Positions 40,903 through 62,832 of a DNA stretch of 64,000 nt are shown here, in pieces (position 1 is the stretch's first letter; each line of letters begins with the position of its first letter). The position numbers were made by a program, and so were the translations under genes. The stretch spans positions 34,171 to 98,170 of IMG/VR virus record IMGVR_UViG_2706796290_000001; one strand, given 5' to 3'. The notes beneath the pieces were generated by a model. It did not search any database, was not told the origin of the DNA, and saw nothing but the letters and a program-made list of their open reading frames with translations. The stretch is from a virus. Lineage: Duplodnaviria; Heunggongvirae; Uroviricota; Caudoviricetes.

Positions 40903-40907
40903 AGTTT

Positions 40908-40930
40908 GCCCCTTTCAGGGGCTTTCTTAT
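40908..40930 (+). terminator. Rho-independent terminator
   Basis: GCCCCTTTCAGGGGC followed by TTTCTTATT. Confidence 0.55.
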
Positions 40931-40942
40931 TAGGAGATTCTT

Positions 40943-41358: not shown

Positions 41359-41444
41359 TTGTTGTGAAATTGTAAATTAATTTGACAATAATAACTTTTG
41401 ATGATATACATAAAGAACTATTAAACTTTTAAGAGGAATATTTT

Positions 41445-41876: not shown

Positions 41877-42027
41877 TATGAGGGAAATTTCTAAAGAGTA
41901 TATCAAAAGAAAAGTTAAAGATTGGTATAACCTAGCAGCAACACATCCAAGGATTACCTATGCGATATTCTTGGTGGTTGTTTTTTCTTTAATACTTTTA
42001 AATACTGAATAGTAATAGGAGGTTTGG

Positions 42028-42594
42028 GTGTCTATTAAAGGGACTGGTGACTATATTCGTGTGACTGTTTCTCAAGAGGCAAAAGCTGCACTTGCTCGGA
42101 AGTTATTGCCTTTAGAGAATGTCAAAGATAAATATAGTGCATCAGCACAAACACAGCTAGGTTTTCCTTTTGGGGGTAACCTAGGGATTCCTTACACCTT
42201 AGAAACAATGAAGAGGCGCTATGTAGATTTCCTTGGTGAAAATGAGATTAAAATTCTTAGGTACATGATGCGGATATCTTTATCCTCAATTAAATATGGG
42301 ATGTATACCAAGCAAGATTACGCTATGGTGAACTTCACAAGCTCAATTGTATCACCTTATCTTTGGGATGTGTTTAAGGAGTGGCTAATCTCATGTGGAT
42401 TTACTGTACGAGAGGATATTCGAGAGACAGTACTAATCCAAGATTCTTACAATCAAGGGTCTGGAAGGTTTAAACTAATGTACGGTGCAAAAATCTTTTG
42501 GTCAAAAAAATCTGAAGAAAATGTTGACTTGTTAACTAAGATGGGTGTAGGATTGGGTATCAAAAATGGTTATGACCTAGAGGAAATCTTATGA
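42028..42594 (+). CDS. Hypothetical protein
   Basis: GTG start after GGAGG. 188 aa. Confidence 0.4.
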   Translation: MSIKGTGDYIRVTVSQEAKAALARKLLPLENVKDKYSASAQTQLGFPFGGNLGIPYTLETMKRRYVDFLGENEIKILRYMMRISLSSIKYGMYTKQDYAMVNFTSSIVSPYLWDVFKEWLISCGFTVREDIRETVLIQDSYNQGSGRFKLMYGAKIFWSKKSEENVDLLTKMGVGLGIKNGYDLEEIL

Positions 42595-42977
42595 CCGAAA
42601 TAGTTAAACAAGAAGAGAGCACTTCTGAAGACGAAATCATCAAAGTTAAAAAGAGTGTTGTTGTAGAGTACATCCTGAAAGATAGAAATAAATATCTAAG
42701 AGCACAACAATCACGCTATAAAAACATGAGATTGATTGATGGAATTCATATGAGATTTCTATTTATATATGGTGCTTTGTCGATTTTACTTGTGTTATCA
42801 TTACTGTGGACAATTGTTCGAATCATACTATTAAAAGAATTCTACGATGTTTTACTAGGAGCTTTTGATGTAATACTACTATTCATCTTTGTTATGCGTG
42901 TTGATGATGCACTACACTGGTGGGATGAAGAAGAGGAAAGAACAGGAGGTTATCTTGCCGACACAGAAACAGACTGA
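42591..42977 (+). CDS. Membrane protein (2 TM)
   Basis: Two hydrophobic helices. Confidence 0.4.
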   Translation: MTEIVKQEESTSEDEIIKVKKSVVVEYILKDRNKYLRAQQSRYKNMRLIDGIHMRFLFIYGALSILLVLSLLWTIVRIILLKEFYDVLLGAFDVILLFIFVMRVDDALHWWDEEEERTGGYLADTETD

Positions 42978-42993
42978 TTCACTATACGTTGAA

Positions 42994-43425
42994 ATGCTAG
43001 AACCCCTGAAGAAACGCTCTCATGGGGTTAGAGCTAAAGTTGGAGCAATCTTGGTGACCCAACAAGGTAACCTTCTGGTTGGAATTAATGGGCTACCTAA
43101 ACAGCTTGGAAACAAGTTGGAGATTGAAGAGGTAGTTTTAGAGAGTGTATTTGGACAGCCACCTAGATGGGTTCTCACAGGTGAGTTAATAACTAAACCT
43201 ACAGTTATTCATGCAGAGATGAATTGTATTTTAAAGGCTGCTAGAGAAGGAGTTAGCACAGTTAATTCTACTGTCTATGTAACGCTATCACCATGTGCTC
43301 ATTGTGCCTCTATGCTTGTTTCTGCTGGTGTAAAGCGGTTGGTTTATGTTGAGGATTATCGTGATCCTTCAGGGCTGGATGTTTTGAGGCGTTGTGATAT
43401 AGAAGTTGTTAAATATAAGGAGTAA
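42994..43425 (+). CDS. dCMP (deoxycytidylate) deaminase
   Basis: Zinc motifs HAEMNCI and SPCAHCA. N-terminal KVGAILV as in T4 Cd. Start is uncertain (ATG 42994 versus upstream TTG 42889, which overlaps the previous gene). Confidence 0.65.
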   Translation: MLEPLKKRSHGVRAKVGAILVTQQGNLLVGINGLPKQLGNKLEIEEVVLESVFGQPPRWVLTGELITKPTVIHAEMNCILKAAREGVSTVNSTVYVTLSPCAHCASMLVSAGVKRLVYVEDYRDPSGLDVLRRCDIEVVKYKE

Positions 43426-43430
43426 TTTCT

Positions 43431-43754
43431 TTGGATATGTTGGAAGTTTATTTAAAAAAGAGAATGTTGGGTTGTGCTTTTAAAGGTATTATCCATCAAG
43501 GTCCTGACAAGGATAAGTTTAAAGATTCTGAATTTCTACTTACAAGAATTTCAAATCGCTATGTTTGGGGGCACCCTGTAGGATATCCAAAGAAGAGATT
43601 CTGCTTTAAATTGTCCGAAGTTAGATTTTACTTTGATGATCAACAGTCTGAACCACATCAATCATTCATGTGTAAGCTGATGGATGCCTTATGTGATGTT
43701 GAAGATGACATCCAAAGTGGTTATATTAAGTATTTAATAACAGACCAAAATTGA
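43431..43754 (+). CDS. Hypothetical protein
   Basis: 107 aa. Confidence 0.4.
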   Translation: MDMLEVYLKKRMLGCAFKGIIHQGPDKDKFKDSEFLLTRISNRYVWGHPVGYPKKRFCFKLSEVRFYFDDQQSEPHQSFMCKLMDALCDVEDDIQSGYIKYLITDQN

Positions 43755-43774
43755 GCTTGAAAATTTAAATCAAA

Positions 43775-43807
43775 CCCCTAGTGCTTGACATTAGGGGTAT
43801 TTTTTTG
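43775..43807 (+). terminator. Rho-independent terminator
   Basis: CCCCTA...TAGGGG hairpin followed by TATTTTTTTG. Confidence 0.55.
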
Positions 43808-43848
43808 TTAAAATTAAATTTAATAGATAACCAAAAGGTTAATTTTTT

Positions 43849-44289
43849 ATGACAACTTTTGTATATGTTGAAATGTCTGAGGGGTCAAAATCCCCAGTGG
43901 GTAAGCTTCATGAGGTAGATACCTCAATGATCTGTATTCATAAAGATACTCTTTTTAAAGGTTTTCCAGAAGTCAACTTCGACATGTTGATGGAAACATT
44001 GAAAGAACACCTCAATGAATTCGAAGAGTCAACTTTCTTAAAAAACTGGCAAGGTGTTGGTTATATGAAAAATATACCACAACATCAATTTGCACTAAGA
44101 ATGATTGAGAAGTATAAACTGTTCTCAGCCCTTGATGAAATGGAACTTGAAGATATTGAATATGATGAATACACTGATAGTGTTGTTCAAAGTATACTCG
44201 CACTGTTAGATGATTTATTCAATTATGGGGATACCATCGAGGTGATTAAGATTATTTATGCTGGTGAAGTTAATAACTTGTTTGGATGA
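43849..44289 (+). CDS. Hypothetical acidic protein
   Basis: 146 aa. Confidence 0.4.
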   Translation: MTTFVYVEMSEGSKSPVGKLHEVDTSMICIHKDTLFKGFPEVNFDMLMETLKEHLNEFEESTFLKNWQGVGYMKNIPQHQFALRMIEKYKLFSALDEMELEDIEYDEYTDSVVQSILALLDDLFNYGDTIEVIKIIYAGEVNNLFG

Positions 44290-44399
44290 GGGTTTTTAAA
44301 TGAAAGAGAAATGGACTGTTGTTGCTGCTATAGCTTGTAGCATATTAATCCTGTACTTCTGTGCACTATCTCAAAATAAAGCTAAATAGGCTCAGTGTG

Positions 44400-44573
44400 A
44401 TGGAGAAACGCGATTTTATGCAAGTGGTGGGAGAATTTATGCTTGTGACAACTACAAAAAGCATGAAGCTCAACAACAGGAAACACAGGAATGGACAAAC
44501 AACTAGTTTTGAACTATTTAAGGACCTACAGTTTTTCTTACATACGACCTATGTACAGATCCCTACAGGTTAG
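44400..44573 (+). CDS. Hypothetical small protein (overlaps the next ORF by about 80 nt out of frame)
   Basis: ATG 44400 within tracked ORF 44361..44573. Confidence 0.25.
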   Translation: MEKRDFMQVVGEFMLVTTTKSMKLNNRKHRNGQTTSFELFKDLQFFLHTTYVQIPTG

Positions 44574-44694
44574 ATCTAAAGGTATGTCTTTAAACAAATT
44601 TAGGAAGTTTTTAAAAGGTATGGAAAAGGAAGGATTAATTGAAGAGGTTAAGATACTTCCTTACCATGACTTTCCTTGCTGGAGATTGAAATGA
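44491..44694 (+). CDS. Hypothetical small basic protein
   Basis: 67 aa, K/R-rich. Confidence 0.3.
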   Translation: MDKQLVLNYLRTYSFSYIRPMYRSLQVRSKGMSLNKFRKFLKGMEKEGLIEEVKILPYHDFPCWRLK

Positions 44695-44915
44695 CATTTT
44701 TTAATGAAGAGCGTATTGGTGGAAAAGATGAGGTAGAGTTGGGAACTAGGGTAATATCAAGTCTCAATGTGCACAGTTTCAATAAAATCACCTACGAGTT
44801 TTCCTTCTTGATTTTTGGTGAGGATTTTGATAAAACTATCTACACACGCTTTGATATGGATTTCAATATTGAAGACCATGAAGAATTTATCTGGAGAGAT
44901 GAAGATGGGGATTAA
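44676..44915 (+). CDS. Hypothetical protein
   Basis: 79 aa. Confidence 0.35.
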   Translation: MLEIEMTFFNEERIGGKDEVELGTRVISSLNVHSFNKITYEFSFLIFGEDFDKTIYTRFDMDFNIEDHEEFIWRDEDGD

Positions 44916-45078
44916 AAAATCTAGAGAAAAATTTGAAGAAGCCTTCAAAGAAGTGTGGTCCAGAAGGAATGTGGAATTCCAACGATTAGTTTGGTTGGAG
45001 GAAGAACAGCGATATGACCGTGATCACCCACAAATCATGTGGGAGTTGTGGCAGATACAAGAATCCCTAGGAGATTAA
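44899..45078 (+). CDS. Hypothetical protein
   Basis: ATG 44899 in frame with tracked ORF 44815..45078. Confidence 0.35.
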   Translation: MKMGIKKSREKFEEAFKEVWSRRNVEFQRLVWLEEEQRYDRDHPQIMWELWQIQESLGD

Positions 45079-45079
45079 T

Positions 45080-45286
45080 ATGAGTGAATTCAATAAGGGT
45101 GACCGTGTAGTTATTGAATTCTCACCTGTATGGAATGTACTATTTAATCCAAAGAAAGTTTTTAGTGGGAATATTGGTAAGATAAAAGATAAATTTGAAT
45201 ATGCAGGTTGTTTATTTTACAGGGTTTATAATCCAGAATGGGAGTTTGATGTTAATGTCAAAGCTTCTTTGTTAACTAAATTTTAA
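45080..45286 (+). CDS. Small KOW-like paralog family member (YNPEW)
   Basis: NKGDRVVIE ... GNIGKIKD ... YNPEW. Confidence 0.5.
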   Translation: MSEFNKGDRVVIEFSPVWNVLFNPKKVFSGNIGKIKDKFEYAGCLFYRVYNPEWEFDVNVKASLLTKF

Positions 45287-45295
45287 AGGTATACC

Positions 45296-45682
45296 ATGAA
45301 ACAAATTATTTTCCTAGATGATGAAAGAGTAATCCAAGATGTAACTTGGTTAGATTATTCTAAAATGGATAACTCTAAGTGGTCTGGTGCTTATGTCATC
45401 TCCCAAAGTTCAGCTTCTCGTTTAATCTCATACATTAAACATTATGGGAAATACTTTGACTGGGAAAATACTTTGTTTTCCTTAGACCATGACCTTCAGG
45501 ATTTTGATGGGGAGGAAGAGTCTACAGGTTATACTTTCATTAAATGGTTGGTTGACTTTATGGTTAAGAACGAAATTTCCCTCCAACATCTCCATGTAGT
45601 TGTGCACTCACAAAATCCTGTTGGTAAAGAAAACATTGAAAAATATATCAGTAATGCTAAACTACACTATTTAGAATTCTAG
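45296..45682 (+). CDS. Hypothetical protein
   Basis: 128 aa. Confidence 0.4.
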   Translation: MKQIIFLDDERVIQDVTWLDYSKMDNSKWSGAYVISQSSASRLISYIKHYGKYFDWENTLFSLDHDLQDFDGEEESTGYTFIKWLVDFMVKNEISLQHLHVVVHSQNPVGKENIEKYISNAKLHYLEF

Positions 45683-45688
45683 GAGATT

Positions 45689-45907
45689 TTGATGGGATAT
45701 TACAAAGTAGGTGATGTAGTTGAAATTACCAAACTAATAGCTTTAGATGAAGAACTTGGTATAAAAGTTGGGGATATTGCGAAGGTCCAACGAGTAAAAG
45801 ATTATGATGATGGTGATCAATACATTATCTGTTATAATCCAAAATGGAATAGATTAATTGATGGATTAAGGCGAATGGTCCCCCGACAGTTAAAGAAGGT
45901 GAAGTAA
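45689..45907 (+). CDS. Small KOW-like paralog family member
   Basis: KVGDVVEITKL...GIKVGDIAKV...CYNPKW. Confidence 0.55.
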   Translation: MMGYYKVGDVVEITKLIALDEELGIKVGDIAKVQRVKDYDDGDQYIICYNPKWNRLIDGLRRMVPRQLKKVK

Positions 45908-46119
45908 TGGCAGAAGCAATACTAGATGTAAAAAACCTCAAGGCACCAATTGTAGTAGTCCGTTTTACGGTGTTTGGTGATAGGGCAATGTATAAGTTGT
46001 ACTTGAAAAAAGATTTTGGGTATTACTGTGAAGATCAACCTAGTGCTTGGTTTGATAGTAGTCTTGTAGATCACTTAAATGATTGGCAATATCATTCACA
46101 CCAAGAAATTTATTTGTAG
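45907..46119 (+). CDS. Hypothetical protein
   Basis: 70 aa. Confidence 0.35.
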   Translation: MAEAILDVKNLKAPIVVVRFTVFGDRAMYKLYLKKDFGYYCEDQPSAWFDSSLVDHLNDWQYHSHQEIYL

Positions 46120-46127
46120 GAGTTATT

Positions 46128-46349
46128 ATGGCTAAATACAAAGAAGGTGATAAAGTTGTTGTCACAAAGCTTGTTTCTACTGACTATGAAAGAGGTATAC
46201 GTGTTGGACACATAGCTAAGGTTGTCACAGTTCGAGATCTAGATGGAGCTGCCTATTGTCACAACCCCGAATGGGATTATAGAGGGTTACAACGTCAAAA
46301 TAGAACAATGCTATCCTACCAAATTGAAAAATGTGAGGTGCACAAGTGA
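46128..46349 (+). CDS. Small KOW-like paralog family member
   Basis: KEGDKVVVTKL...GIRVGHIAKV...CHNPEW. ATG 46128 after AGGAG. Confidence 0.55.
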   Translation: MAKYKEGDKVVVTKLVSTDYERGIRVGHIAKVVTVRDLDGAAYCHNPEWDYRGLQRQNRTMLSYQIEKCEVHK

Positions 46350-46573
46350 ATGTGGATTTTAATCAAGATACAGGTAAAGGTTTAACGATTGGGGAAATTC
46401 GTTCTCGTGCACAAAAATATGCTACACATTATGAAATTCAAGGAAATGAGGTGGTATACTACGCTAAGGATCAAATAGGTCGTTGGTGCTATGTTGATGA
46501 TGAAAGTGGTGGAGGTTGGCCTACACATTCTTGTGAATGGGATCGTCTGGATAATGAACTGAAGCCACTTTAA
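46346..46573 (+). CDS. Hypothetical protein
   Basis: 75 aa. Confidence 0.35.
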   Translation: MNVDFNQDTGKGLTIGEIRSRAQKYATHYEIQGNEVVYYAKDQIGRWCYVDDESGGGWPTHSCEWDRLDNELKPL

Positions 46574-46601
46574 TGTGGTTTTACTTTTTGGAGATTGTGT
46601 G

Positions 46602-46790
46602 ATGTTTAAAGTAGGTGATAAAGTAGAGGTGATAGAGGTTTTAGCTGCCGATGAGGAAGCTAATATCAAGGTTGGTGATGTAGCAAAAGTCACTGTGGTG
46701 AGAGGTCCTTTTTGGATTCAATGTGAAAATCCTGAATGGGTAGACGGTTTCATGCCTATGAGAGAATACCAAATCAAGAAGGTAGGATAG
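46602..46790 (+). CDS. Small KOW-like paralog family member
   Basis: FKVGDKVEVIEVL...IKVGDVAKV...CENPEW. Confidence 0.55.
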   Translation: MFKVGDKVEVIEVLAADEEANIKVGDVAKVTVVRGPFWIQCENPEWVDGFMPMREYQIKKVG

Positions 46791-46793
46791 TTA

Positions 46794-46987
46794 TGCGATA
46801 TAATATTGGTGATAAAGTAGTTATCACAAGAGTTTCAGTAACAGATACTAGATTTGGGGTGAAGGTTGGAGATGTAGCCAAGGTAGTTGAACAAGATCAC
46901 TGGGATCGAAATTGGTACTATTGTAGAAACCCTGATTGGAAACAAGATATAGTCAATATGAAAAATGACCAACTTAAAAAACTCTGA
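46794..46987 (+). CDS. Small KOW-like paralog family member
   Basis: NIGDKVVITRV...GVKVGDVAKV...CRNPDW. Confidence 0.55.
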
Positions 46988-47005
46988 AAATAATTTTAAA
47001 AAGTT

Positions 47006-47034
47006 GTTGACAGGAAAATTAAAACCCACTAACA
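47006..47034 (+). promoter_or_regulatory. Sigma70-like promoter upstream of the MoxR-like cassette
   Basis: AAAAAGTTGTTGACA-N17-TAACAT. Confidence 0.4.
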
Positions 47035-47123
47035 TAAGCCTCATAGAGAACAAGCAAACAAAGTTCTTAATGAAATACTTGAATAAACAGCACATTGGTG
47101 CACAAACTATCTAGGAGATATTA

Positions 47124-48317
47124 ATGGATTTACTTATTGGTCATTCTTACCAGTTAATCAACACTAAAGATCCAGCTTTCATGTTCACAACTGGTTTTAG
47201 TGACCCTAAGACAAATAAAGTCATTAAAGATGCTATTATTAAACCTTACAGCAAAGATGATGATGGTGATGTTTTTGCTTATGCATACTTCCCAGATCGT
47301 CAAGACACTATTATCAATCCAGATCACAATGTGTTGATCATTCGAAGTGAATTTGATTTGTTTAAAGAGGTTGGTGCTGGTGATCAATCTCAACCAGAAG
47401 TGGATGGAATTGAAGAAAGTGAAGTATTCTCTCACAATCTTAAGAAGATGTTCCAAGAGATGGTTGATAAAAACCTAGGCTCTGAAGAGATGCAATCGAA
47501 GATCACTGAAACTATCCGTGAAACTGTGCTTGAGCAAGCTCCACGACCACTTGAAGTGAAGTTTGGTGAGAAGACAACTGTAATTGGTACTGCTCACGTA
47601 ATGCTTGCAGAAGCTTTAAAACGCTTAAATGCAACAAAGAACATCATGTTAGTTGGTCCTGCTGGTTCTGGTAAGACTTACCTTGCAGCACAACTTGCAG
47701 AGTCTTTACAGCTTGACTTCTCATCAATTTCTTGTAGCTCTGGTATGTCTGAATCAGTGATTACTGGTTGGTTGTTACCTGTTGATGGTGGTGCATTTGA
47801 ATACCATGAAAGTGACTTCATTCGAATTTACGAAAATGGTGGTGTGTTCTTGTTTGATGAAATGGATGCTGCTGACCCATCTATCTTATTGATCATCAAC
47901 CAAGCATTAGCAAACGGTAAAATTACTGTTCCACAACGTAAAGGTAATACAGAAGTTAAACGACATAAAGACTTCATTTGTGTTGGCGCATGTAACACAT
48001 TTGGTCGTGGTTCTAACTTAATGTACTCTGGTCGTGAACGATTGGATGAATCAACACTTGACCGTTTCCGTTTAGGTTTGATGGAAATGGATTACGACAA
48101 GCTCCTTGAAGAAAAAGTTGTTGATAAAGCTGTTCGTGAATGGGCTTGGCAAGTACGTGCTCGAATTCAGGAAAGTGGTTTACGCCGAGTGATGTCAACA
48201 CGTTTCATGATCGATGCAACTAAGTTGTTACAAAATACTGATGCAACAATGCAGAAAGTAAAAGATATCTTCTTTGTTGGTTGGTCTGATGACGAGAGAC
48301 GTAAAACTGATTTATAA
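47124..48317 (+). CDS. MoxR-like (AAA_5-type) AAA+ ATPase with about 150-aa N-terminal extension
   Basis: Walker A VGPAGSGKT, Walker B FLFDEMDAA, sensor region ACNTFGRGSN, arginine-finger-like ESTLDRF. Confidence 0.55.
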   Translation: MDLLIGHSYQLINTKDPAFMFTTGFSDPKTNKVIKDAIIKPYSKDDDGDVFAYAYFPDRQDTIINPDHNVLIIRSEFDLFKEVGAGDQSQPEVDGIEESEVFSHNLKKMFQEMVDKNLGSEEMQSKITETIRETVLEQAPRPLEVKFGEKTTVIGTAHVMLAEALKRLNATKNIMLVGPAGSGKTYLAAQLAESLQLDFSSISCSSGMSESVITGWLLPVDGGAFEYHESDFIRIYENGGVFLFDEMDAADPSILLIINQALANGKITVPQRKGNTEVKRHKDFICVGACNTFGRGSNLMYSGRERLDESTLDRFRLGLMEMDYDKLLEEKVVDKAVREWAWQVRARIQESGLRRVMSTRFMIDATKLLQNTDATMQKVKDIFFVGWSDDERRKTDL

Positions 48318-48335
48318 CAAAAACTTCCCAAGAAA

Positions 48336-48368
48336 CCCCTAAAGGAATTCCTTTAGGGGTTTTATTTT
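48336..48368 (+). terminator. Rho-independent terminator (palindrome family)
   Basis: CCCCTAAAGGAATTCCTTTAGGGG followed by TTTTATTTT. Confidence 0.65.
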
Positions 48369-48381
48369 GAATAAATTTTAC

Positions 48382-48410
48382 TTGATTTAAAAATAGAATT
48401 TGTTTAGAAT
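48382..48410 (+). promoter_or_regulatory. Sigma70-like promoter
   Basis: TTGATT-N17-TAGAAT. Confidence 0.4.
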
Positions 48411-48446
48411 CTACTTAGTTATTAAGCTCAATAAGAGGATATCTCA

Positions 48447-49340
48447 ATGTATAAATCTGTTGAAAATGTTAAAGGTTTGCACGGTAAAGTGGCGATCGTT
48501 AAATATAGAAATGTTTCTGATGCTATGGACCACTATAAAAAATATGATGTGGACATCCCTTTCAAGCACAATAAAGGTAAGGTTTCAGAGTATCGTGGTG
48601 GTCATCATAGTACTGATTGGACAGGTTTTAGTGATCAACGTCACTTTGAACAAACTATGCTTCATGGTGATAAAATCAAAGCGATTGAGATTGAAGAAAT
48701 TCAAGCACCAGAAGTTAAGGTTGAGTCACGTAAACGTAAACGCCATAAAGGGCCTATCGGTGATACTTTAGATATTCATGCAGTATATCGTGGTGAATTG
48801 GATCGTGCATGGACCTATACCAAACGTGATATGCATGATGGTGGTATGAAAAACATCACCCTCCTAATTAACATTGGTGATAACTGTGGCGTTTCCTCAC
48901 AGGCATTAGGGTGGCGTGGTGCAGTGGCATTGAAAGTTTGTGATGTGATGACTGAAGCTGGTTATAATGTTCGAATCATTGCTAACCAAATGACTGAAGA
49001 TTTAACCCGTGATGACGATGGTTATGGCTACAATTGCACAACTGTTAAGGACTTTGATGAATACTTGGATGTGCCTAAGCTTGCTGCAATCTTCTGCCGT
49101 GCAGGTTTCTTCCGTTCAGTAATCTTCACCACAATTGTTTATGAAGCTGAATTACTGGGGAAACGTGTAGGTTACGGTTTAGGTCGATCTATCAAGTCAC
49201 ACAGTGAGGAAGGTAAGAAGCTAATCGAACATGTGCACCAAGATGAAGGATATATGGTGGTATTCCCTTCGGTGAATGGTAAAGAGGATGCTTTAAATGC
49301 CATGAAGGAGATCTTAAAGCCTTATTTAATTGAGGAATAA
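48447..49340 (+). CDS. Hypothetical protein, candidate partner of the MoxR-like ATPase
   Basis: 297-aa ORF with RBS AAGAGGA, immediately downstream of the ATPase. No recognisable motif. Confidence 0.4.
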   Translation: MYKSVENVKGLHGKVAIVKYRNVSDAMDHYKKYDVDIPFKHNKGKVSEYRGGHHSTDWTGFSDQRHFEQTMLHGDKIKAIEIEEIQAPEVKVESRKRKRHKGPIGDTLDIHAVYRGELDRAWTYTKRDMHDGGMKNITLLINIGDNCGVSSQALGWRGAVALKVCDVMTEAGYNVRIIANQMTEDLTRDDDGYGYNCTTVKDFDEYLDVPKLAAIFCRAGFFRSVIFTTIVYEAELLGKRVGYGLGRSIKSHSEEGKKLIEHVHQDEGYMVVFPSVNGKEDALNAMKEILKPYLIEE

Positions 49341-49342
49341 TC

Positions 49343-49621
49343 ATGGATCGTCAAGAGATGATTAAGAAGTATCCTATCGGCTCTAAGCTGGTAGGGAGAT
49401 ATCTAGGGCACAAAAAGTCTTCAATTGAAATGATTTGTAAGGTTGTTGGTTATTCTGCTTTCAGAACTTCGATTTTAGTCTATAATCCAGAAATAATTGG
49501 TCATAATGGTACTGGAAGATGTGTAGATCAAACAGCATCTAGAATTTCTGGGGAAAAGATAAAAGATCTTTATGGTAACCATTGTTGGTATGTTAAATAT
49601 GAAGATTTGCGAGGTAATTAA
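49343..49621 (+). CDS. Small paralog (YPIGSK...YNPxI subgroup)
   Basis: YPIGSKLVGRY...LVYNPEIIGHNGTG...CWYV. Confidence 0.5.
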   Translation: MDRQEMIKKYPIGSKLVGRYLGHKKSSIEMICKVVGYSAFRTSILVYNPEIIGHNGTGRCVDQTASRISGEKIKDLYGNHCWYVKYEDLRGN

Positions 49622-49914
49622 TGATTTTAGAAGGGCTAGAAGACATTGCTAGAGAATATCCAATAGGTTCGAAGGTTATATGTAATGGGAATAATCTTAG
49701 TTATGGGGGGAATGGAGAAGAATTAGTTTGTAAAGTTCTTGGCTATAGCCGATGGGGATATGGTTTGTTACTATACAACCCTGACATTCTAGGACATTCA
49801 GGGAATGGTTTATGTTTAAATGGTTTGCATGAAGAAGTTGATCAAGGCTACCTTGAGAGAAACTACCGAGAGAGTTGCTGGTATATTAGCTACAACATGG
49901 TTAAGAAGGTGTAG
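49621..49914 (+). CDS. Small paralog (same subgroup)
   Basis: YPIGSKVICNG...LLYNPDILGHSGNG...CWYI. Confidence 0.5.
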   Translation: MILEGLEDIAREYPIGSKVICNGNNLSYGGNGEELVCKVLGYSRWGYGLLLYNPDILGHSGNGLCLNGLHEEVDQGYLERNYRESCWYISYNMVKKV

Positions 49915-49944
49915 TATACCTATAGATAAAATGTGGAGGTATAA

Positions 49945-50217
49945 ATGGTTGCTGTTCCAAAAGATAAATTCCCTATTGGATGTAAAGTAAGGGTGATTAG
50001 TGGAGATGGTAGGTGGAAAACTGGAGATATTGGCAAGGTGATAGGCTATGGTGGTACAGATGATATTGTTATATACAACCCACGTATAGAAGGACATAGT
50101 GCATCAACTCACTGTTTTGATAAGAATGGTTGTAGGATCAAGGATGAAGTAAGGTTAAAATATGCAGGTCATTTATGGTACATCTCTATAAGAAGTACAG
50201 AAAGAATTGGAGGTTAA
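49945..50217 (+). CDS. Small paralog (same subgroup)
   Basis: FPIGCKVRVISG...VIYNPRIEGHSAS...LWYI. Confidence 0.5.
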   Translation: MVAVPKDKFPIGCKVRVISGDGRWKTGDIGKVIGYGGTDDIVIYNPRIEGHSASTHCFDKNGCRIKDEVRLKYAGHLWYISIRSTERIGG

Positions 50218-50220
50218 GTC

Positions 50221-50682
50221 GTGAGTAAGCAAGTAGAAAACCCTAAGTACAAATCCTTAAAACAACCTACAGGTAATGGTTCATGTCGCCCTAAAGGTTA
50301 TGGCTGGGTGCAAGTTGATAAGTTAGTGGGTTCTGACAATCAGTATGGTATTGTAGAAAATGGTATCTATAAGGTTGTGGTGTATAATCCTTTAGGTGTA
50401 ATTATTATTACTCCAGATGCCCCGTATGGTGACAACACAAGAGAGCTAATTAAGGATCAATATCATTGGGTTTCATTTGATGATGTCTTTAATCCAATAC
50501 CTGAAGATGAAGAACTGAAGGTTGGTGATAGGGTAATGCTTAATCAAGATTACAACACCTATAAAAAAGGTTATGTTATGAAAGTAAAAGAAATCAGAAA
50601 AGATGGTGACGATTTGCTTGTACAACTTTGTAATCCGAGTACATCCTTCTGGGCTTATTCTCATAGAATACGTAAATTCTAA
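50221..50682 (+). CDS. Two-domain paralog family member
   Basis: GTG start. VVYNPLG... plus second unit KVGDRVML...CNPSTSFW. Confidence 0.45.
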   Translation: MSKQVENPKYKSLKQPTGNGSCRPKGYGWVQVDKLVGSDNQYGIVENGIYKVVVYNPLGVIIITPDAPYGDNTRELIKDQYHWVSFDDVFNPIPEDEELKVGDRVMLNQDYNTYKKGYVMKVKEIRKDGDDLLVQLCNPSTSFWAYSHRIRKF

Positions 50683-50766
50683 TTAAGTTTCCATTGAAAA
50701 CTTGCACAAACCCTCAAGAAATGATAGTATGCACCTATTAATCAACCAAGCATTATAGGTGCTAAA

Positions 50767-51231
50767 ATGGCTAAACGTTTTAAGTATACTAAACTTCAAC
50801 AATCTCAAAAAACTTCAAAATTATCATCTATTTGCAATAAAGTGACTACTTCTGTAGCTCGCTTTTTTCGTGTTGCCTTTAAAAACTTCTTAAGTATGTT
50901 TAAAGGTGGTTCTCCACAGGATATCATGCGAGATAGATTTAAAGAGTGGCACGAAGATGTAAACCTTGCAAATAAGAAGGTGACTTATCAAGTTGGTCAG
51001 AGAGTAACCATTAATGATGTTTCTTATTTTGAGAAATACAGAGGTTTTCATGCTGGTGATGTTGCAAAAATTACCAAATTGATTAATGAGGATGGTGTTG
51101 AGAAGTTAGCACTCTTCAATCCTAAATGGATCACTGCGAAAGATGAACTTGGTTTGGGTTGTGTAATTGTTGATCCTAAGAAATGCATGGTGGAGATTGT
51201 TGGTGTAAAATCTGGGGGTGTAAATGTATAA
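50767..51231 (+). CDS. Paralog family member with N-terminal basic extension
   Basis: VGQRVTIND...GDVAKITKL...FNPKW. Confidence 0.45.
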   Translation: MAKRFKYTKLQQSQKTSKLSSICNKVTTSVARFFRVAFKNFLSMFKGGSPQDIMRDRFKEWHEDVNLANKKVTYQVGQRVTINDVSYFEKYRGFHAGDVAKITKLINEDGVEKLALFNPKWITAKDELGLGCVIVDPKKCMVEIVGVKSGGVNV

Positions 51232-51472
51232 TGAAGGTCTACCTGTAGATGGTGCTAAAATAGTGGTTAACAACCCTGATGGCATATCCAGAAGCACCTA
51301 CAACGTAAGAGAAAACGATGTGGCGAAAGTAGTGGGGAGAATTCATGGTTCTGGTTACAGTATACTAGCATACAATCCTGATTGGAAAAATAAAGAGAGG
51401 GATCACGATGCATTTACATACAAGGGACCTTGTGTGATATTGTGTCGCAGTGAGTATGAGGTGATTGAATAA
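51224..51472 (+). CDS. Small KOW-like paralog family member
   Basis: AKIVVNNPD...NDVAKVVGR...YNPDW...SEYEVIE. Confidence 0.5.
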   Translation: MYNEGLPVDGAKIVVNNPDGISRSTYNVRENDVAKVVGRIHGSGYSILAYNPDWKNKERDHDAFTYKGPCVILCRSEYEVIE

Positions 51473-51789
51473 TGGAAATGTGGGATGGTTATGGTGTGTC
51501 AAGCTATGCAAAAGGTGAATATGATGCATCAGAGGTTGTTGTAGGTTCAAAGATAGTTATAACAAAACCTGACAGTGTTTCTATTGCAAGGAATGCTCTT
51601 AATGGTGATATTGGAAAGATCGTACATGTATGTAAAGTTGACAACAAGCCATGTACATATCTGGCATATAATCCAAAGTGGAAATGTTGTGACGATGGTA
51701 TGCAGAGGGGTTTTGGATATGGGGGTTTGTTTATAATACTTTGGAGAAGTGAGTTTGAGGTGATTCGATATGAAAACAAAAGTTGGTGA
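51472..51789 (+). CDS. Small KOW-like paralog family member
   Basis: GSKIVITKPD...GDIGKIVHV...YNPKW...SEFEVIRYE. Confidence 0.5.
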   Translation: MEMWDGYGVSSYAKGEYDASEVVVGSKIVITKPDSVSIARNALNGDIGKIVHVCKVDNKPCTYLAYNPKWKCCDDGMQRGFGYGGLFIILWRSEFEVIRYENKSW

Positions 51790-51985
51790 TAAAATCAAAA
51801 TAACCTCTCTTGATAAGTAAAGTGATGCCACAGGAGTAGAAATAGGACATGTTGGTAAAGTTGTTGAGGTTTACCCTGCTGGGTGCTTTGCTGAGAATCC
51901 ATTGTGGGGTAAAGGTTCAACAGGATTCTTTAACAGTGAATTTGAGGTCTTAAATAAATCTGAGGGTTTGAACGATGACTGAATG
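51770..51985 (+). pseudogene. Paralog family member with in-frame TAA (codon 17) - pseudogene or readthrough candidate
   Basis: MKTKVGDKIKITSLDK*SDATGVEIGHVGKVVEV...ENPLW...SEFEVLNK aligns throughout with its paralogs. The stop at 51818-51820 falls at a variable position within the domain. Confidence 0.5.
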
Positions 51986-52244
51986 TTATTATTGGGATGT
52001 CCCATCACAAACTAAAGAGCCTACAATAAAAGTTGGCGATAAGGTTGAGATAATTGATCCTCATCAGCTTGACAAATTCCTTGGAATTCAGGTTGGGGAT
52101 GTGGCTAAAGTGGTTTATGTAGGAAATGATCATTTAAGATGTAATAATCCAAGATGGAATATCCGTGATCATGAAATCGGCAGAGTGATGGGTCTAAATC
52201 AAATTAAGCTGATTGTGAATACTTATAAGGAAGAATCTCTATGA
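51975..52244 (+). CDS. Small KOW-like paralog family member
   Basis: IKVGDKVEIIDP...GIQVGDVAKVVYV...CNNPRW. Confidence 0.55.
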   Translation: MTECYYWDVPSQTKEPTIKVGDKVEIIDPHQLDKFLGIQVGDVAKVVYVGNDHLRCNNPRWNIRDHEIGRVMGLNQIKLIVNTYKEESL

Positions 52245-52498
52245 AAGAACCAGAAATTGGCACCAAAGTTGTAATTGTTAATCCTGATGACCGTTCTCGT
52301 GCAGAAGGTATTGTTGAAGGTGATGTAGGTAAAATACTCAAATGTGAATCTAGCTTCAAAGCAAATGAGTTGCTATTACTTGTGCACAACCCTAAGTGGG
52401 AAAACATGCACGAAGGTGTTCTTGATTGTAAATCACCTTGTCATCTTGTATACTTATCTGAATGTGATATTTACGAAGAATGCCTTAAGGGGAATTAG
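52241..52498 (+). CDS. Small KOW-like paralog family member
   Basis: EIGTKVVIVNPD...GDVGKILK...HNPKW. Confidence 0.5.
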   Translation: MKEPEIGTKVVIVNPDDRSRAEGIVEGDVGKILKCESSFKANELLLLVHNPKWENMHEGVLDCKSPCHLVYLSECDIYEECLKGN

Positions 52499-52500
52499 TT

Positions 52501-52851
52501 ATGAGTGCTAAGATACCAGAAATACCACCTATACCAAAACCAGAGCCAGAAAAACCTTATGAAATTTCTCAGACTGTACATAGTCGATTTAATCACCAGA
52601 AGTGTCAGTACGAAGTATTTTCTGTAGGTGAGAGGGTGAGAATATCCCTTTATGGATCTCAATTCCTGAATAATTATGGTATTTACGATGGTCACGTAGG
52701 GAAAATTGTAGAGATAAAAAAGGTTGATATGGGGAATGGAAGTGTTGTTGCTAAGATTTACATAAAAAACCCACTATGGCACTATAAATTACCCGACAAA
52801 GACCCTACAATAATGGAGTTTTTGGATTATGAAGTTTCCAAATTGGAGTAG
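52501..52851 (+). CDS. Paralog family member with N-terminal Pro-rich extension
   Basis: VGERVRISL...GHVGKIVEI...KNPLW. Confidence 0.45.
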   Translation: MSAKIPEIPPIPKPEPEKPYEISQTVHSRFNHQKCQYEVFSVGERVRISLYGSQFLNNYGIYDGHVGKIVEIKKVDMGNGSVVAKIYIKNPLWHYKLPDKDPTIMEFLDYEVSKLE

Positions 52852-59528: not shown

Positions 59529-59836
59529 TTAATTTTATCTAATAAGGCTGCCTTTATAGGTGGCCTTTTTTATTGCCTAAAATAAATCAGAAAGGTTTTG
59601 CCTTAAGGGGTTTTATGTGTGGGGTGTTAGCACTACCTATAAATACTCCATGTCATGTGTGGTTATTTCCTCATAGAATCGCTCAGGTTTAACAGTGGCG
59701 GTGTGTAGTAGGGGTATACATTGGGGTTATCTCTCATGGCTATAGTGGCCCAAATATATTCATAGGCCCTAGATATTTTAGGATTTTAGGACCGAAAAAT
59801 AAGCCCGCCACCCCCATGGTTTAGTGGGTTGTCGAA

Positions 59837-59944
59837 CCCCCGAAGGATAACCCTCAAGAACAACCCTCAAGAAACCCCCGAAGGATAACCCTCAAGAACA
59901 ACCCTAAAGGTACAACCCCGAAGGATAACCCTCAAGAACAACCC
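59837..59944. repeat. Iteron-like repeats, GGATAACC core (right cluster)
   Basis: CCCCGAAGGATAACCCTCAAGAACAACCC at 59837, 59875 and 59916, with 38-41 nt period. Confidence 0.65.
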
Positions 59945-60062: not shown

Positions 60063-60284
60063 CTAAAACATAAATTTTGTGTGCTTAGTGATAACAACCC
60101 AATACCAAAAAGAACACATAAATAGAATTAACGTTGGTATAAATGTTATGAAAAGAAGACTGATAGAATCTAACACATACTTATCTTGAATGAATTTGAT
60201 GCAAAATATCCAAGCCTTCGTAAATAACACCACAAAGCAAAGATAGAACGATGCAATACCAAACATTAATAAAAAATCTATCAT
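60063..60284 (-). CDS. Small membrane protein (2-3 TM)
   Basis: 73 aa, hydrophobic. Confidence 0.35.
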   Translation of the reverse strand: MIDFLLMFGIASFYLCFVVLFTKAWIFCIKFIQDKYVLDSISLLFITFIPTLILFMCSFWYWVVITKHTKFMF

Positions 60285-60524
60285 TTAATTTTCCTCTTTA
60301 ATTACTGTGCCAAGAACCTTGAGTTCACCATTTCTGTAGCTATTATATTTACCATTAGACCAATGAACCTTCCACCATATCATATTCTCATCATCACTTT
60401 CACGTGTCACTCTAACCACTTCACCAACGATACCTCTTGGGTTGTCTGGGTAGTTTTCTTCCCAGTATGGACTTAGAGGGTCTAGTGTAACTTTTGCACC
60501 AACAAATAATTTACGGCTCATCAA
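60285..60524 (-). CDS. Minus-strand paralog family member (WSNG family)
   Basis: VGAKVTL...HWSNGKYNSY...LKVLG. Confidence 0.5.
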   Translation of the reverse strand: MMSRKLFVGAKVTLDPLSPYWEENYPDNPRGIVGEVVRVTRESDDENMIWWKVHWSNGKYNSYRNGELKVLGTVIKEEN

Positions 60525-60762
60525 CTACCACTCCTAGAATCTTCAGATCTTCAGCATCGTATCCATTATACTTCCCATTACTCCAATGTACACCAATCCT
60601 TAAATCACCACCTGTTTCATAAAAGTCCCATATTTTCCAAACAAGACCAGATATACCTGAAGGGTTAAAAGAGTGTTCAGGTGCCTCATTATTGAAGTAC
60701 TGTGAGTTCCTAGCTATTGTTACCTTAGTGCCAATTTCAAAGTCTTCCAATTTATTAGCCAT
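60511..60762 (-). CDS. Minus-strand paralog family member
   Basis: IGTKVTI...HWSNGKYNGY...LKILG. Confidence 0.5.
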   Translation of the reverse strand: MANKLEDFEIGTKVTIARNSQYFNNEAPEHSFNPSGISGLVWKIWDFYETGGDLRIGVHWSNGKYNGYDAEDLKILGVVVDEP

Positions 60763-60997
60763 CGACCACCACTCCTAAAACCTTTAAGTCACCATCTTGG
60801 TAGGTGTTAGATTCACCATTACTCCACTTAACTCCCCACCAGATTTCATCTTCCTCTTCATCCTCAGCAGCAATACCAGTTACAACACCTGCAATATCTG
60901 ATGGATTTCTATAATAATTCCCATAATAAATACTCTTTGAGTCAATGGTGACTTTTGCCCCAATGAACAATTTCCGATCTCCCTCTACTATTACCAT
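60755..60997 (-). CDS. Minus-strand paralog family member
   Basis: IGAKVTI...KWSNGESNTY...LKVLG. Confidence 0.5.
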   Translation of the reverse strand: MVIVEGDRKLFIGAKVTIDSKSIYYGNYYRNPSDIAGVVTGIAAEDEEEDEIWWGVKWSNGESNTYQDGDLKVLGVVVDG

Positions 60998-61560
60998 GTT
61001 GGCAAACCCTCCACAAACTGTTTACACCAATGTACTTGACCAAGTGTCCAAGAATCATAGAAAGGTATCTCTCCAAATCTTGAGTGCAACTTTACTTCAA
61101 GCTTATCTTCCCAGTCTCCATTTCTCGACAGAATCTTCCAACCATAAATAAAGAAGTGTTCGCCATCAAAGACCAAAGAACCAATCCCACACTCATTAGT
61201 TCTTAAGTCACGCACTTCCAATAAATCACCAACATAAAGTGGACCACGCTCAAATAGATTGATTTTTGAGTAAGTTCCAATTCTACCTAAATGGTAAATA
61301 TCTCCATGTATGTTTGTATATAGTTCTCCAAAATTATAACCTTGACCAAGAACTTTTAAATCAACCGCATCGTATGAATTTCTTTGACCATTATCCCACT
61401 GAACTTGGTAGGGTAAATGACATACTTTATAACCATCCAGTTCATTCCTAATGACTACTCCAGCGATTCCTTGGGGATTGTTGAACATACCCTCATCATT
61501 CCACCACTCAGATTCTTTACTTAAGGTTACTTTTGTCCCAATTACAATTTCTTTGTGCAC
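60991..61560 (-). CDS. Minus-strand paralog family member with about 110-aa C-terminal extension
   Basis: IGTKVTL...QWDNGQRNSY...LKVLG plus extra domain (YVGDLLEV...). Confidence 0.5.
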   Translation of the reverse strand: MHKEIVIGTKVTLSKESEWWNDEGMFNNPQGIAGVVIRNELDGYKVCHLPYQVQWDNGQRNSYDAVDLKVLGQGYNFGELYTNIHGDIYHLGRIGTYSKINLFERGPLYVGDLLEVRDLRTNECGIGSLVFDGEHFFIYGWKILSRNGDWEDKLEVKLHSRFGEIPFYDSWTLGQVHWCKQFVEGLPTW

Positions 61561-61581
61561 AACAATCTCCTATTCCTATTC

Positions 61582-62139
61582 CTATTCAACACCAGTCACA
61601 CCATCTAGTGTGTCTCGAACTGTAAATTTAGGTCCGTAATCAGGTTCTTTATGAAATGATTCATGTTTTTCATAACTAACATCATCCCAAGTGTTGCCAT
61701 TTAGTGTTGCTGACTTATAGCCCATAACAAAGTAACCCTTCTTAGTTTTAACTACAGGATGAATTCTAGGAACATCGTCTTTAAAGCCTATCTTAACCAA
61801 ATCACCAACAAACAGAGGTAATCTATCAGTGCCAACCAGAGGTGTTGCTTCACCGATATTGCCATAGAACTCATCAGCGTAAAGAGTATTTTTCTTGATA
61901 AGGTATTTCGGAAGGGTGGTTTGACCTAAAACCTTCAGTTCGTCTGCCTTATAGTAATTAGTTTCACCATTAGACCATTTAACTACAAAGCACAGTCTCA
62001 GCTTGTCATTTATTGAAATGACCTGCCCATGAGTACCTATTGGGTTCCAAGGTGATGACTCACCATTTTCATCAATGATAGCCCAACGACTGCTCTTCTC
62101 TAAAGTAACTTTAGTTCCAACCTTAATTATCTTTTCCAT
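61582..62139 (-). CDS. Minus-strand paralog family member with about 110-aa C-terminal extension
   Basis: VGTKVTL...KWSNGETNYY...LKVLG plus extra domain (FVGDLVKI...). Confidence 0.5.
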   Translation of the reverse strand: MEKIIKVGTKVTLEKSSRWAIIDENGESSPWNPIGTHGQVISINDKLRLCFVVKWSNGETNYYKADELKVLGQTTLPKYLIKKNTLYADEFYGNIGEATPLVGTDRLPLFVGDLVKIGFKDDVPRIHPVVKTKKGYFVMGYKSATLNGNTWDDVSYEKHESFHKEPDYGPKFTVRDTLDGVTGVE

Positions 62140-62574: not shown

Positions 62575-62832
62575 TTAGTTTTCTTCTTCAAGACTTTCAA
62601 TTTCCTCACCAGAAATATGTCGCACTAATTCCCAGTATTGCTGGTAGAATTCTTTTCGTCCTAACTTACACATTTCCAAAATTTGTTCTTCGGCTTGTGG
62701 TTCGGTTAGACCTTCGTTTTCCATCAGCAAGTATTTCAATACTGAAATCTCCATCAGTAACTTATCCTTTGCAGCTTTGTTACGAATGTCTTCCAGAACG
62801 GTTAAAACTTTTTCTTCAAACACTTGACTCAT
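62575..62832 (-). CDS. Hypothetical small acidic protein
   Basis: 85 aa. Confidence 0.35.
   Translation of the reverse strand: MSQVFEEKVLTVLEDIRNKAAKDKLLMEISVLKYLLMENEGLTEPQAEEQILEMCKLGRKEFYQQYWELVRHISGEEIESLEEEN

What the first reader, a model, noticed from the sequence alone, without database searches (positions are those of the whole stretch)
60285..62139. Second, minus-strand tandem family (WSNG...LKVLG) with two domain-extended members
Five consecutive minus-strand genes share [I/V]G[T/A]KVT[L/I] - about 40 aa - [HKQ]WSNG..N.Y....LK[V/I]LG. The three short members are about 80 aa. The two at 60991 and 61582 carry a related extra 110-aa domain of their own (YVGDLLEV / FVGDLVKI). The N-terminal VGxKVx motif echoes the plus-strand family, so it may be a distant clade of the same fold expanded independently and encoded on the opposite strand.
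Basis: seen in the sequence. Interest (0 to 1): 0.6.

Follow-up and report, generated by a model that had tools for sequence, protein, structure and literature searches.

The report
Phage array of MIB/HERC2-like SH3 proteins
Five neighbouring genes of an Acinetobacter phage encode diverged copies of one small beta-barrel protein that is a viral relative of the peptide-binding MIB/HERC2 domain of animal ubiquitin ligases; they are probably dispensable protein-binding accessory factors of untested function.

Summary
The window is Acinetobacter phage YMC13/03/R2096. Five consecutive minus-strand genes (79, 83, 80, 189 and 185 aa) are true paralogs, with pairwise BLASTP E from 2e-5 to 1e-18.

The shared ~73-aa domain is not a new fold. 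It is a divergent, phage-type branch of the MIB/HERC2 SH3-like domain:
- hhalign to bona fide eukaryotic repeats gives 96.8-97.8% probability;
- an AlphaFold model reaches pLDDT 86;

GenBank already tags one of the five genes as "Pfam: Mib_herc2".

The two long members share a second, all-beta C-terminal domain (E = 1e-8). Searches that can only reach fairly close relatives found it only in this phage clade, and it has no sequence match to anything known.

The proposed link to the plus-strand family is weak (26-64% probability, first strands only).

Context:
- The domain is widespread in phages: 998 representative clusters.
- It is often found in arrays or fused to varied domains.
- Copy number is 3-5 among near-identical phages.
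- dN/dS is about 0.2-0.5.
- Divergence sits mainly in two loops.

Best reading: dispensable, diversifying protein-binding modules from a probable early operon. Function is untested. Interest is modest.

The parts
60285..60524 (-). S1: stand-alone MIB/HERC2-like SH3 protein, 79 aa (TTG start at 60524; GenBank uses the ATG at 60521)
   Evidence: ORF. Pfam MIB_HERC2 at E = 5.2e-6, 26.7 bits, below the 33.5-bit cut-off. phrog_9469 at E = 5e-35. GenBank note 'Pfam: Mib_herc2'.
60511..60762 (-). S2: stand-alone MIB/HERC2-like SH3 protein, 83 aa; overlaps S1 by 14 nt
   Evidence: ORF. BLASTP to its paralogs at E 6e-8 to 5e-12. phrog_9469 at E = 6e-30. Absent in phage AM24 and replaced by a very divergent allele in Mithridates.
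60755..60997 (-). S3: stand-alone MIB/HERC2-like SH3 protein, 80 aa; overlaps S2 by 8 nt
   Evidence: ORF. BLASTP to S1 at E = 3e-16, 53% identity. phrog_9469 at E = 1e-30.
61342..61560 (-). L1 N-terminal MIB/HERC2-like domain (aa 1-73 of the 189-aa protein encoded by 60991-61560)
60991..61341 (-). L1 C-terminal all-beta domain (aa 74-189 plus stop); the gene overlaps S3 by 7 nt
   Evidence: Homologous to the L2 C-domain, E = 1e-8. phrog_11307 at E = 1.5e-55 for the whole protein. No Pfam or PDB sequence hit. Model blocks from residue 101 to 160 have mean pLDDT 82-96 and the region is all-beta.
61921..62139 (-). L2 N-terminal MIB/HERC2-like domain (aa 1-73 of the 185-aa protein encoded by 61582-62139)
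   Evidence: Family profile hmmsearch at E = 7e-25. BLASTP to L1 at E = 1e-18 over 174 aa.
61582..61920 (-). L2 C-terminal all-beta domain (aa 74-185 plus stop)
   Evidence: Absent in AM24 and Bestia.

Best explanation
The five genes form a tandem paralog array, produced by duplication and divergence, of a small soluble five-stranded SH3-like beta-barrel. The barrel belongs to a large, mostly viral branch of the MIB/HERC2 domain superfamily.

Three copies are the bare domain. Two carry a second beta-rich domain that my searches found only in this phage clade.

The genes lie at the far end of a leftward block of about 14.5 kb made of small non-structural genes. Four of the five genes (L1, S3, S2, S1) are joined by 7-14-nt overlaps, each with its own Shine-Dalgarno site, so they are probably co-transcribed and translationally coupled.

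By analogy with the MIB/HERC2 domains of Mind bomb, which dock short linear peptide epitopes, I infer that each copy acts as a non-catalytic protein-binding module. It would bind a host protein, or possibly a phage protein, during infection. The paralogs differ mainly in two surface loops, so they would cover different targets or target variants.

Shown here: paralogy, homology to MIB/HERC2, the fold, gene dispensability, purifying selection, and wide occurrence in phages. Inferred only: early expression, protein (not nucleic-acid) ligands, and any role in host takeover or anti-defence.
For: Paralogy.

Homology to MIB/HERC2:
- Pfam PF06701 at E = 5e-6 for S1.
- Family profile against PDB MIB1 at E = 1.8e-4, matching both of its MIB/HERC2 repeats, and HECTD1 at E = 0.6.
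- An exhaustive HMMER search found 998 representative proteins at E <= 1e-3. They include Kipferlia bialata A0A9K3CQF0, which has ten Pfam-certified MIB_HERC2 repeats.
- hhalign to those ten repeats gives 96.8% probability (E = 3e-10) with the clade profile and 97.8% (E = 1e-12) with a 230-sequence phage profile.

The known role of MIB/HERC2 domains is docking the N-box peptide (PMC11887331).

Diversification: strand columns are 60-96% conserved among the five paralogs, while loops 14-27 and 40-50 are 33-41% conserved and carry the indels.

Accessory status: copy number is 3 (AM24), 4 (Bestia, Mithridates) and 5 (Herod, R2096) among phages about 92-94% identical in this region. dN/dS is 0.2-0.5 for most ortholog pairs, on small counts.

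Not DNA-binder-like: pI is 4.2-6.9.

Modular adaptor behaviour elsewhere: the same domain sits N-terminal to many unrelated extensions. It also occurs in multi-domain proteins with ART-PolyVal, an L7/L12 C-terminal domain, dGTP diphosphohydrolase or a tail lysozyme.

Arrays of separate genes recur in other viral contigs, for example 7 copies in L066 and at least 8 on one 92-kb contig.

Genomic setting: the block of small leftward genes includes a Ser/Thr phosphatase. Neighbours of homologs elsewhere are mostly DNA-metabolism or unknown genes, with only a few structural ones.
Against: - There is no experimental or contextual evidence for any specific partner.
- Four of the five proteins do not hit the Pfam MIB_HERC2 model at all, and none reaches its gathering score.
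- The N-terminal half-motif of canonical domains (GPDWKWGxQDG) is replaced by S-x-YY...NP, so the ligand site may not be conserved.
- Early timing is inferred from gene order only. The promoter scan was no better than shuffled sequence: 12 sites against 15.7 expected.
- No hit in the PADLOC or NCBIfam libraries.
Confidence: 0.5

Rival explanations
1. The proteins bind nucleic acid or the ribosome. They would act like KOW, Tudor or eL14-type SH3-like barrels and modulate host transcription or translation.
Against: The proteins are acidic to neutral, pI 4.2-6.9, net charge -8 to 0. Sequence-level homology points specifically to MIB/HERC2 and not to KOW or ribosomal families. The Pfam KOW and L21e matches seen in relatives are far below threshold.
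Confidence: 0.15
2. The proteins are virion-associated or injected, like the domains of polyvalent proteins. They would be packaged and delivered with the DNA, or serve as capsid or tail decoration.
For: The same domain occurs in large proteins that carry ART-PolyVal (P0056) or a phage tail lysozyme domain. A few neighbours in other contigs are Mu-F or scaffold proteins.
Against: In this phage the array lies in the leftward block of small non-structural genes. It is tens of kilobases away from, and on the opposite strand to, the terminase-to-tape-measure structural module at record positions 21.7-35 kb. The proteins are tiny and their number varies between near-identical phages. Most neighbours elsewhere are DNA-metabolism genes.
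Confidence: 0.1
3. The copies are subunits of one hetero-oligomeric assembly. They would be co-translated through the overlapping genes, rather than being independent binders with different targets.
For: Overlaps of 7-14 nt join four of the five genes, and each downstream gene's Shine-Dalgarno site lies inside the gene before it, which suggests coupled, stoichiometric synthesis. In other phages 2-4 repeats are fused in one polypeptide. Eukaryotic MIB1 uses two copies together in its MZM module.
Against: Copy number drops to 3 or 4 in close relatives without loss of the rest of the array, and different members are missing in different phages. That is hard to reconcile with an obligate complex.
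Confidence: 0.15

Closest known systems
MIB/HERC2 domain (Pfam PF06701) of eukaryotic E3 ligases MIB1/MIB2, HERC2 and HECTD1
   Same: About 65-aa SH3-like barrel. Shared first strand [LV]-x-[VI]-G-[AT]-[KR]-V. Shared signature W-x-V-x-W-[DS]-N-G-x-x-N-x-Y followed by D-L. Profile-profile probability 96.8-97.8%. Best structural match.
   Different: The phage proteins stand alone or sit next to unrelated small domains, not inside HECT or RING ligases. The canonical 'GPDWKWGxQDG' segment is replaced by 'S-x-YY...NP'. None of the five reaches the Pfam gathering score. The ligand is unknown.
PHROG families phrog_9469 (short form) and phrog_11307 (long form), with weaker matches to phrog_18715, 7871 and 17146
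   Same: These are the families the five proteins belong to, E from 1e-30 to 1e-55.
   Different: PHROGs lists them as 'unknown function'. It records no link to MIB/HERC2.
DUF4314 (Pfam PF14192), an SH3-clan domain of bacteria and phages
   Same: A small phage SH3-like domain with a D/S-N-G turn. Some BFVD structural neighbours are named DUF4314, and 2 of 89 relatives hit the model.
   Different: None of the five window proteins hits DUF4314 even at E <= 1. MIB_HERC2 is the better match throughout.
YorP of the Bacillus subtilis SPbeta prophage (PDB 2heq), a small SH3-like phage protein of unknown function
   Different: Only 15-17% identity and no sequence-level relationship was shown. Its function is equally unknown.
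Mind bomb REP (SH3_15, PF18346) and tandem Tudor modules (53BP1, SETDB1)
   Same: Foldseek aligns the two-domain long form over 160-170 columns to these double-barrel modules. This suggests that L1 and L2 are tandem beta-barrel proteins.
   Different: The scores are weak (E 0.03-0.3, rmsd above 10 Å). The C-domain has no sequence similarity to them or to the N-domain beyond the 'VGDxV' first strand.

Membership tests
MIB_HERC2 (Pfam PF06701) | Score at or above the Pfam gathering cut-off (33.5 bits) against the family HMM | tested here: not met
   S1 scores 26.7 bits (E = 5.2e-6). S2, S3, L1 and L2 give no hit at E <= 1. Among 89 wider relatives, 14 hit at E <= 1e-4.
MIB_HERC2 (Pfam PF06701) | Statistically supported homology to bona fide MIB/HERC2 repeats (profile level) | tested here: met
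   hhalign against ten Pfam-certified repeats of Kipferlia A0A9K3CQF0 gives 96.8% (E = 3e-10) and 97.8% (E = 1e-12). hmmsearch against PDB MIB1 gives E = 1.8e-4.
MIB_HERC2 (Pfam PF06701) | Five-stranded SH3-like barrel most similar to solved MIB/HERC2 domains | tested here: met
MIB_HERC2 (Pfam PF06701) | Full sequence signature: G-[AP]-x-W-K-W-G-x-Q-D-G in the first loop, plus W-V-x-V-x-W-D-N-G-x-x-N-x-Y-R | tested here: inconclusive
   The second half is present (V-x-W-[SD]-N-G-x-x-N-x-Y). The first half is replaced by S-x-[YW]-[YW]...N-P.
MIB_HERC2 (Pfam PF06701) | Embedded in a eukaryotic HECT or RING E3 ubiquitin ligase | tested here: not met
   The phage proteins stand alone at 79-189 aa and no ligase domain is detected.
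MIB_HERC2 (Pfam PF06701) | Binds a short linear peptide epitope of a substrate | not testable with these tools
   Known for the MIB1 MZM module with the JAG1 or Delta N-box (PMC11887331). No binding data exist for the phage proteins.
DUF4314 (Pfam PF14192) | Match to the family HMM | tested here: not met
   No hit for any of the five at E <= 1.
PHROG phrog_9469 / phrog_11307 | Match to the family HMM over most of its length | tested here: met
   S1-S3 match phrog_9469 at E from 6e-30 to 5e-35. L1 and L2 match phrog_11307 at E = 1.5e-55 and 4e-41.
Polyvalent proteins (Iyer et al. 2017) | A large multi-domain polypeptide combining several effector domains | tested here: not met
   The window proteins have one or two domains and no enzymatic domain. 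Only distant relatives such as P0056 (992 aa, ART-PolyVal) fit. The main text of the 2017 paper does not mention SH3 or HERC2.

The most novel reading that the evidence does not exclude
The phage-type MIB/HERC2 domain is a widespread viral 'handle' for seizing host proteins that nobody has described. On this reading, arrays such as this one are fast-turnover sets of inhibitors or decoys aimed at host defence or takeover targets. Specificity would be written in two variable loops, and the C-terminal domain of L1 and L2 would be a new effector or second binding module. A further corollary would be that the eukaryotic ubiquitin-ligase MIB/HERC2 domain shares ancestry with, or was acquired from, this prokaryotic-virus radiation.
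Probability: 0.15. Interest if true: 0.6.

Novelty: new variant of a known kind. Interest (0 to 1): 0.33.

Why it matters
MIB/HERC2 is treated in the literature I could search as a eukaryotic ubiquitin-ligase substrate-docking domain. No paper in the library links it to phages.

Here it turns out to have a large viral radiation: 998 clusters at 50% identity, and 80 of 80 IMG/VR pattern hits confirmed. The domain occurs alone, in gene arrays, in internal repeats, and fused to ADP-ribosyltransferase and other modules.

If these proteins are host-protein binders, they would be a compact and easily engineered scaffold. They would also be a new place to look for phage takeover or anti-defence factors in therapeutic Acinetobacter phages.

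As it stands the result is mainly an annotation upgrade: five 'hypothetical proteins' become members of a known fold superfamily. It also gives a clear experimental target.

Tried and rejected
- NCBIfam and PADLOC scans of the five proteins and their four neighbours gave nothing for the family. The only hit was a weak Cmr5 match (E = 0.0023) for the unrelated 62575-62832 protein, which I regard as noise.
- The first structure prediction used only 9 close homologs and was unusable (pLDDT 53). A 35-sequence alignment fixed it.
- The k-mer-limited homolog searches returned only the same phage clade. The exhaustive representative search was needed to reach distant relatives.
I replaced it with a degenerate DNA pattern for V-x-W-x-N-G-x-x-N-x-Y-x-x-x-D-L.
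- The afdb50 fold library was unavailable.
- The C-terminal domain gave nothing significant against PDB sequences (a porin at E = 0.88). hhalign of it against the N-domain, MIB/HERC2 and the plus-strand families aligned only an 11-13-residue 'VGDxV' strand. I therefore rejected the idea that it is a second, degenerate MIB/HERC2 copy detectable by sequence.
- Single-sequence tblastn against GenBank phages found only the eight records of this clade. PLSDB plasmids gave no match.
- The promoter scan was not above shuffled expectation, so I make no claim about internal promoters.
- Literature searches for phage or bacterial MIB/HERC2 found nothing. The paper describing this phage does not discuss these ORFs.

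Full report
**Source and setting**

The window is the right-hand 64 kb of Acinetobacter phage YMC13/03/R2096 (KM672662.1, 98,170 bp; window position = record position minus 34,170; 100% identity). This is a ~98-kb phage of A. baumannii with close relatives P577, Herod, Ab15, AM24, Bestia and Mithridates.

The finding lies at the far end of a leftward-transcribed block of about 40 small genes. Because the record is permuted, the block runs from record position ~10.6 kb down through position 1 and on to window 60063. It contains a Ser/Thr phosphatase but no structural genes. GC skew turns negative across 60-64 kb, as expected for minus-strand coding.

**Checking the observation**

The five ORFs are at the stated coordinates: 60285-60524 (79 aa, called S1 here), 60511-60762 (83 aa, S2), 60755-60997 (80 aa, S3), 60991-61560 (189 aa, L1) and 61582-62139 (185 aa, L2). 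They coincide with annotated CDSs.

In an all-against-all BLASTP of 213 window ORFs, every pair of the five is significant: E from 2e-5 to 1e-18, 34-53% identity. S ... N-P ... G-x-V ... V-x-W-x-N-G-x-x-N-x-Y ... L-K-x-L-G.

The C-terminal extensions of L1 and L2 are homologous on their own, at E = 1e-8. A family HMM finds no sixth copy in the whole genome.

Each gene has a GGAG-type ribosome-binding site. L1/S3, S3/S2 and S2/S1 overlap by 7, 8 and 14 nt. This suggests co-transcription and translational coupling, which is an inference.

**What the shared domain is**

- Pfam gives MIB_HERC2 (PF06701) for S1 only, at E = 5.2e-6 and 26.7 bits, below the 33.5-bit cut-off. The other four give nothing. 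The GenBank record already carries 'Pfam: Mib_herc2' on that one gene.
- A 20-sequence family profile hits human MIB1 in the PDB at E = 1.8e-4 and aligns to both of its MIB/HERC2 repeats. HECTD1's Mib-herc2 domain comes next at E = 0.6.
- An exhaustive HMMER search of 1.84 billion representatives found 998 proteins at E <= 1e-3 and 55 at E <= 1e-10.
- One of these, P0171 (E = 1.4e-8), is Kipferlia bialata A0A9K3CQF0, with ten Pfam-certified MIB_HERC2 repeats at E = 9e-133.
- Profile-profile comparison with those ten repeats gives 96.8% probability (E = 3e-10) with the clade profile. With a profile of 230 distinct phage-type domains it gives 97.8% (E = 1e-12).
- An AlphaFold model of L1 built on 35 sequences has pLDDT 86 and pTM 0.82.

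The shared domain is therefore a divergent branch of the MIB/HERC2 SH3-like superfamily. It keeps the first strand and the W-x-N-G-x-x-N-x-Y hairpin. It replaces the canonical 'GPDWKWGxQDG' loop with 'S-x-YY...N-P'.

**The C-terminal domain of L1 and L2**

This domain has no Pfam, NCBIfam or PDB sequence match. In my searches it occurred only in 18 proteins of 180-191 aa, all of which also carry the N-terminal domain. The searches that could see it were limited to fairly close relatives, so wider occurrence is not excluded. None of the 80 more distant viral loci contains it.

It is predicted with good confidence as all-beta, with one short helix. Foldseek aligns the whole two-domain model weakly to double-barrel modules: the Mind bomb REP, SETDB1 and 53BP1 tandem Tudor domains, at E 0.03-0.3.

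By sequence it shares only an 11-residue 'VGDxV' strand with the N-domain. I treat it as an unclassified beta domain, possibly a second barrel.

**Relation to the plus-strand family**

The window holds a ten-member plus-strand family (45689...52851, 'VGDKV...VGDVAKV...NPxW') and three smaller families.

hhalign between the minus-strand profile and the ten-member family gives 26% probability, rising to 50% with the broad profile. The small families give 33-64%. In every case only the first two or three strands align. The bona fide MIB/HERC2 repeats show no similarity to any of them (below 1%).

Plus-strand members do dominate the sub-threshold hits of the family HMM, at E 0.3-2.4. A common SH3-like fold class is plausible. 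Membership of one family is not shown.

**Wider distribution**

A degenerate DNA pattern for V-x-W-x-N-G-x-x-N-x-Y-x-x-x-D-L found 84 matching stretches of IMG/VR viral contigs. I scanned 80 of them and all 80 contain ORFs that match the broad HMM. The contigs are mostly 20-350 kb.

- Arrays of separate genes recur. L066 has seven copies, three of them adjacent. One 92-kb contig has at least eight copies (L010, L012, L082). Several other contigs have adjacent pairs.
- Elsewhere 2-4 repeats are fused in one polypeptide.
- The domain also sits N-terminal to many unrelated extensions.
- It is found in large proteins with ART-PolyVal, an L7/L12 C-terminal domain, dGTP diphosphohydrolase or a tail lysozyme.
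- Neighbouring genes show no fixed partner. They are mostly DNA-metabolism genes or genes of unknown function: DUF932 in 6 of 126, family A DNA polymerase, Rad52, DnaB, ligase and RNR.
- Homologs in T4-like Proteus, Morganella and Providencia phages are all annotated 'hypothetical protein'.
- BFVD structural neighbours are likewise uncharacterised. A few are labelled DUF4314.

**Evolutionary behaviour**

Among phages about 92-94% identical in this region, AM24 has 3 copies, Bestia 4, Mithridates 4, and Herod and R2096 5. Different members are missing in different phages.

dN/dS is 0.2-0.5 for most ortholog pairs, on small counts. The S2 copy of Mithridates is a very divergent allele, with dN = 0.33.

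Among the five paralogs the strand columns are 60-96% conserved. Loops 14-27 and 40-50 are 33-41% conserved and hold the indels.

The proteins are acidic to neutral, pI 4.2-6.9.

**Interpretation**

Shown here: a tandem, individually dispensable but selectively maintained array of MIB/HERC2-type SH3-like proteins.

Inferred: the proteins are non-catalytic protein-binding modules made from a probable early operon, and loop divergence gives each copy a different target. The inference rests on the known role of MIB/HERC2 domains in docking short peptide epitopes (PMC11887331), and on the adaptor-like way the domain is combined with other domains in other phages.

The rivals cannot be excluded with these tools. 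They are RNA or ribosome binding, virion or injected proteins, and a hetero-oligomer.

**Novelty and score**

The fold and superfamily are known. One of the five genes is already tagged in GenBank. PHROGs already clusters the proteins, as unknown function.

What appears to be undescribed in the searchable literature is the size and architecture of the viral branch of MIB/HERC2.

I rate this a new variant of a known kind, of modest interest (0.33). The main value is an annotation upgrade and a tractable experimental lead.

Noticed in passing
window 59835-59944: A 38-bp tandem repeat of 2.8 copies at 93% match (AACCCCCGAAGGATAACCCTCAAGAACAACCCTAAAGGTA). It lies in the ~530-bp non-coding gap where the plus-strand and minus-strand gene blocks converge. 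In phages Herod and Ab15 an HNH homing endonuclease gene is annotated in or next to this region.
   Followed up: partly
window 38978-52851, plus strand: There are at least four further small paralog families, all starting with a 'VGDKVxV'-type strand. They are a ten-member 'NPxW' family (45689...52851), a three-member 'YNPxIxGHS' family (49343-50217), and the pairs 38978/39188 and 40943/41146. None has a significant Pfam hit. This phage seems unusually rich in amplified small putative beta-barrel genes.
   Followed up: partly
P0011 and P0188: Homologs are recorded by NCBI as 'hypothetical protein ACT414_18560 / _18550 (plasmid) [Acinetobacter baumannii]' on a 97,154-bp contig. A phage of this clade has therefore apparently been deposited as a plasmid of a bacterial assembly. 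This could reflect a carrier state, pseudolysogeny or contamination. PLSDB 2024 has no match.
   Followed up: partly
L003 5411-5641 (phage Mithridates): The S2 position in Mithridates holds a 76-aa allele with dN = 0.33 and dS about 0.9 relative to S2 of R2096, Herod and Bestia. The flanking S1 and S3 differ by only dN 0.02-0.03. This looks like a local replacement of one array member.
   Followed up: partly
P0057 (666 aa, JGI metagenome): This protein has two phage-type MIB/HERC2-like domains fused to a ribosomal L7/L12 C-terminal domain (Pfam PF00542, E = 9.6e-22). The combination is odd and hints that some family members act at the ribosome or on translation GTPases.
   Followed up: no
IMG/VR contig IMGVR_UViG_3300035698_019240 (L010, L012, L082) and L066: Other viral contigs carry even larger sets of stand-alone copies. 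One 92-kb contig has at least 8, including four in a row at L082 1126-2079. L066 has 7 within 13 kb.
   Followed up: partly
window 60063-60284, minus strand: Immediately downstream of the array, with no intergenic gap, lies a 73-aa hydrophobic protein that looks membrane-spanning from its sequence (pI 8.5). It has no family match. It is the last gene of the leftward block.
   Followed up: no
window 62575-62832, minus strand: This 85-aa acidic protein (phrog_30204) gives a weak PADLOC match to Cmr5, E = 0.0023. It is probably chance.
   Followed up: no
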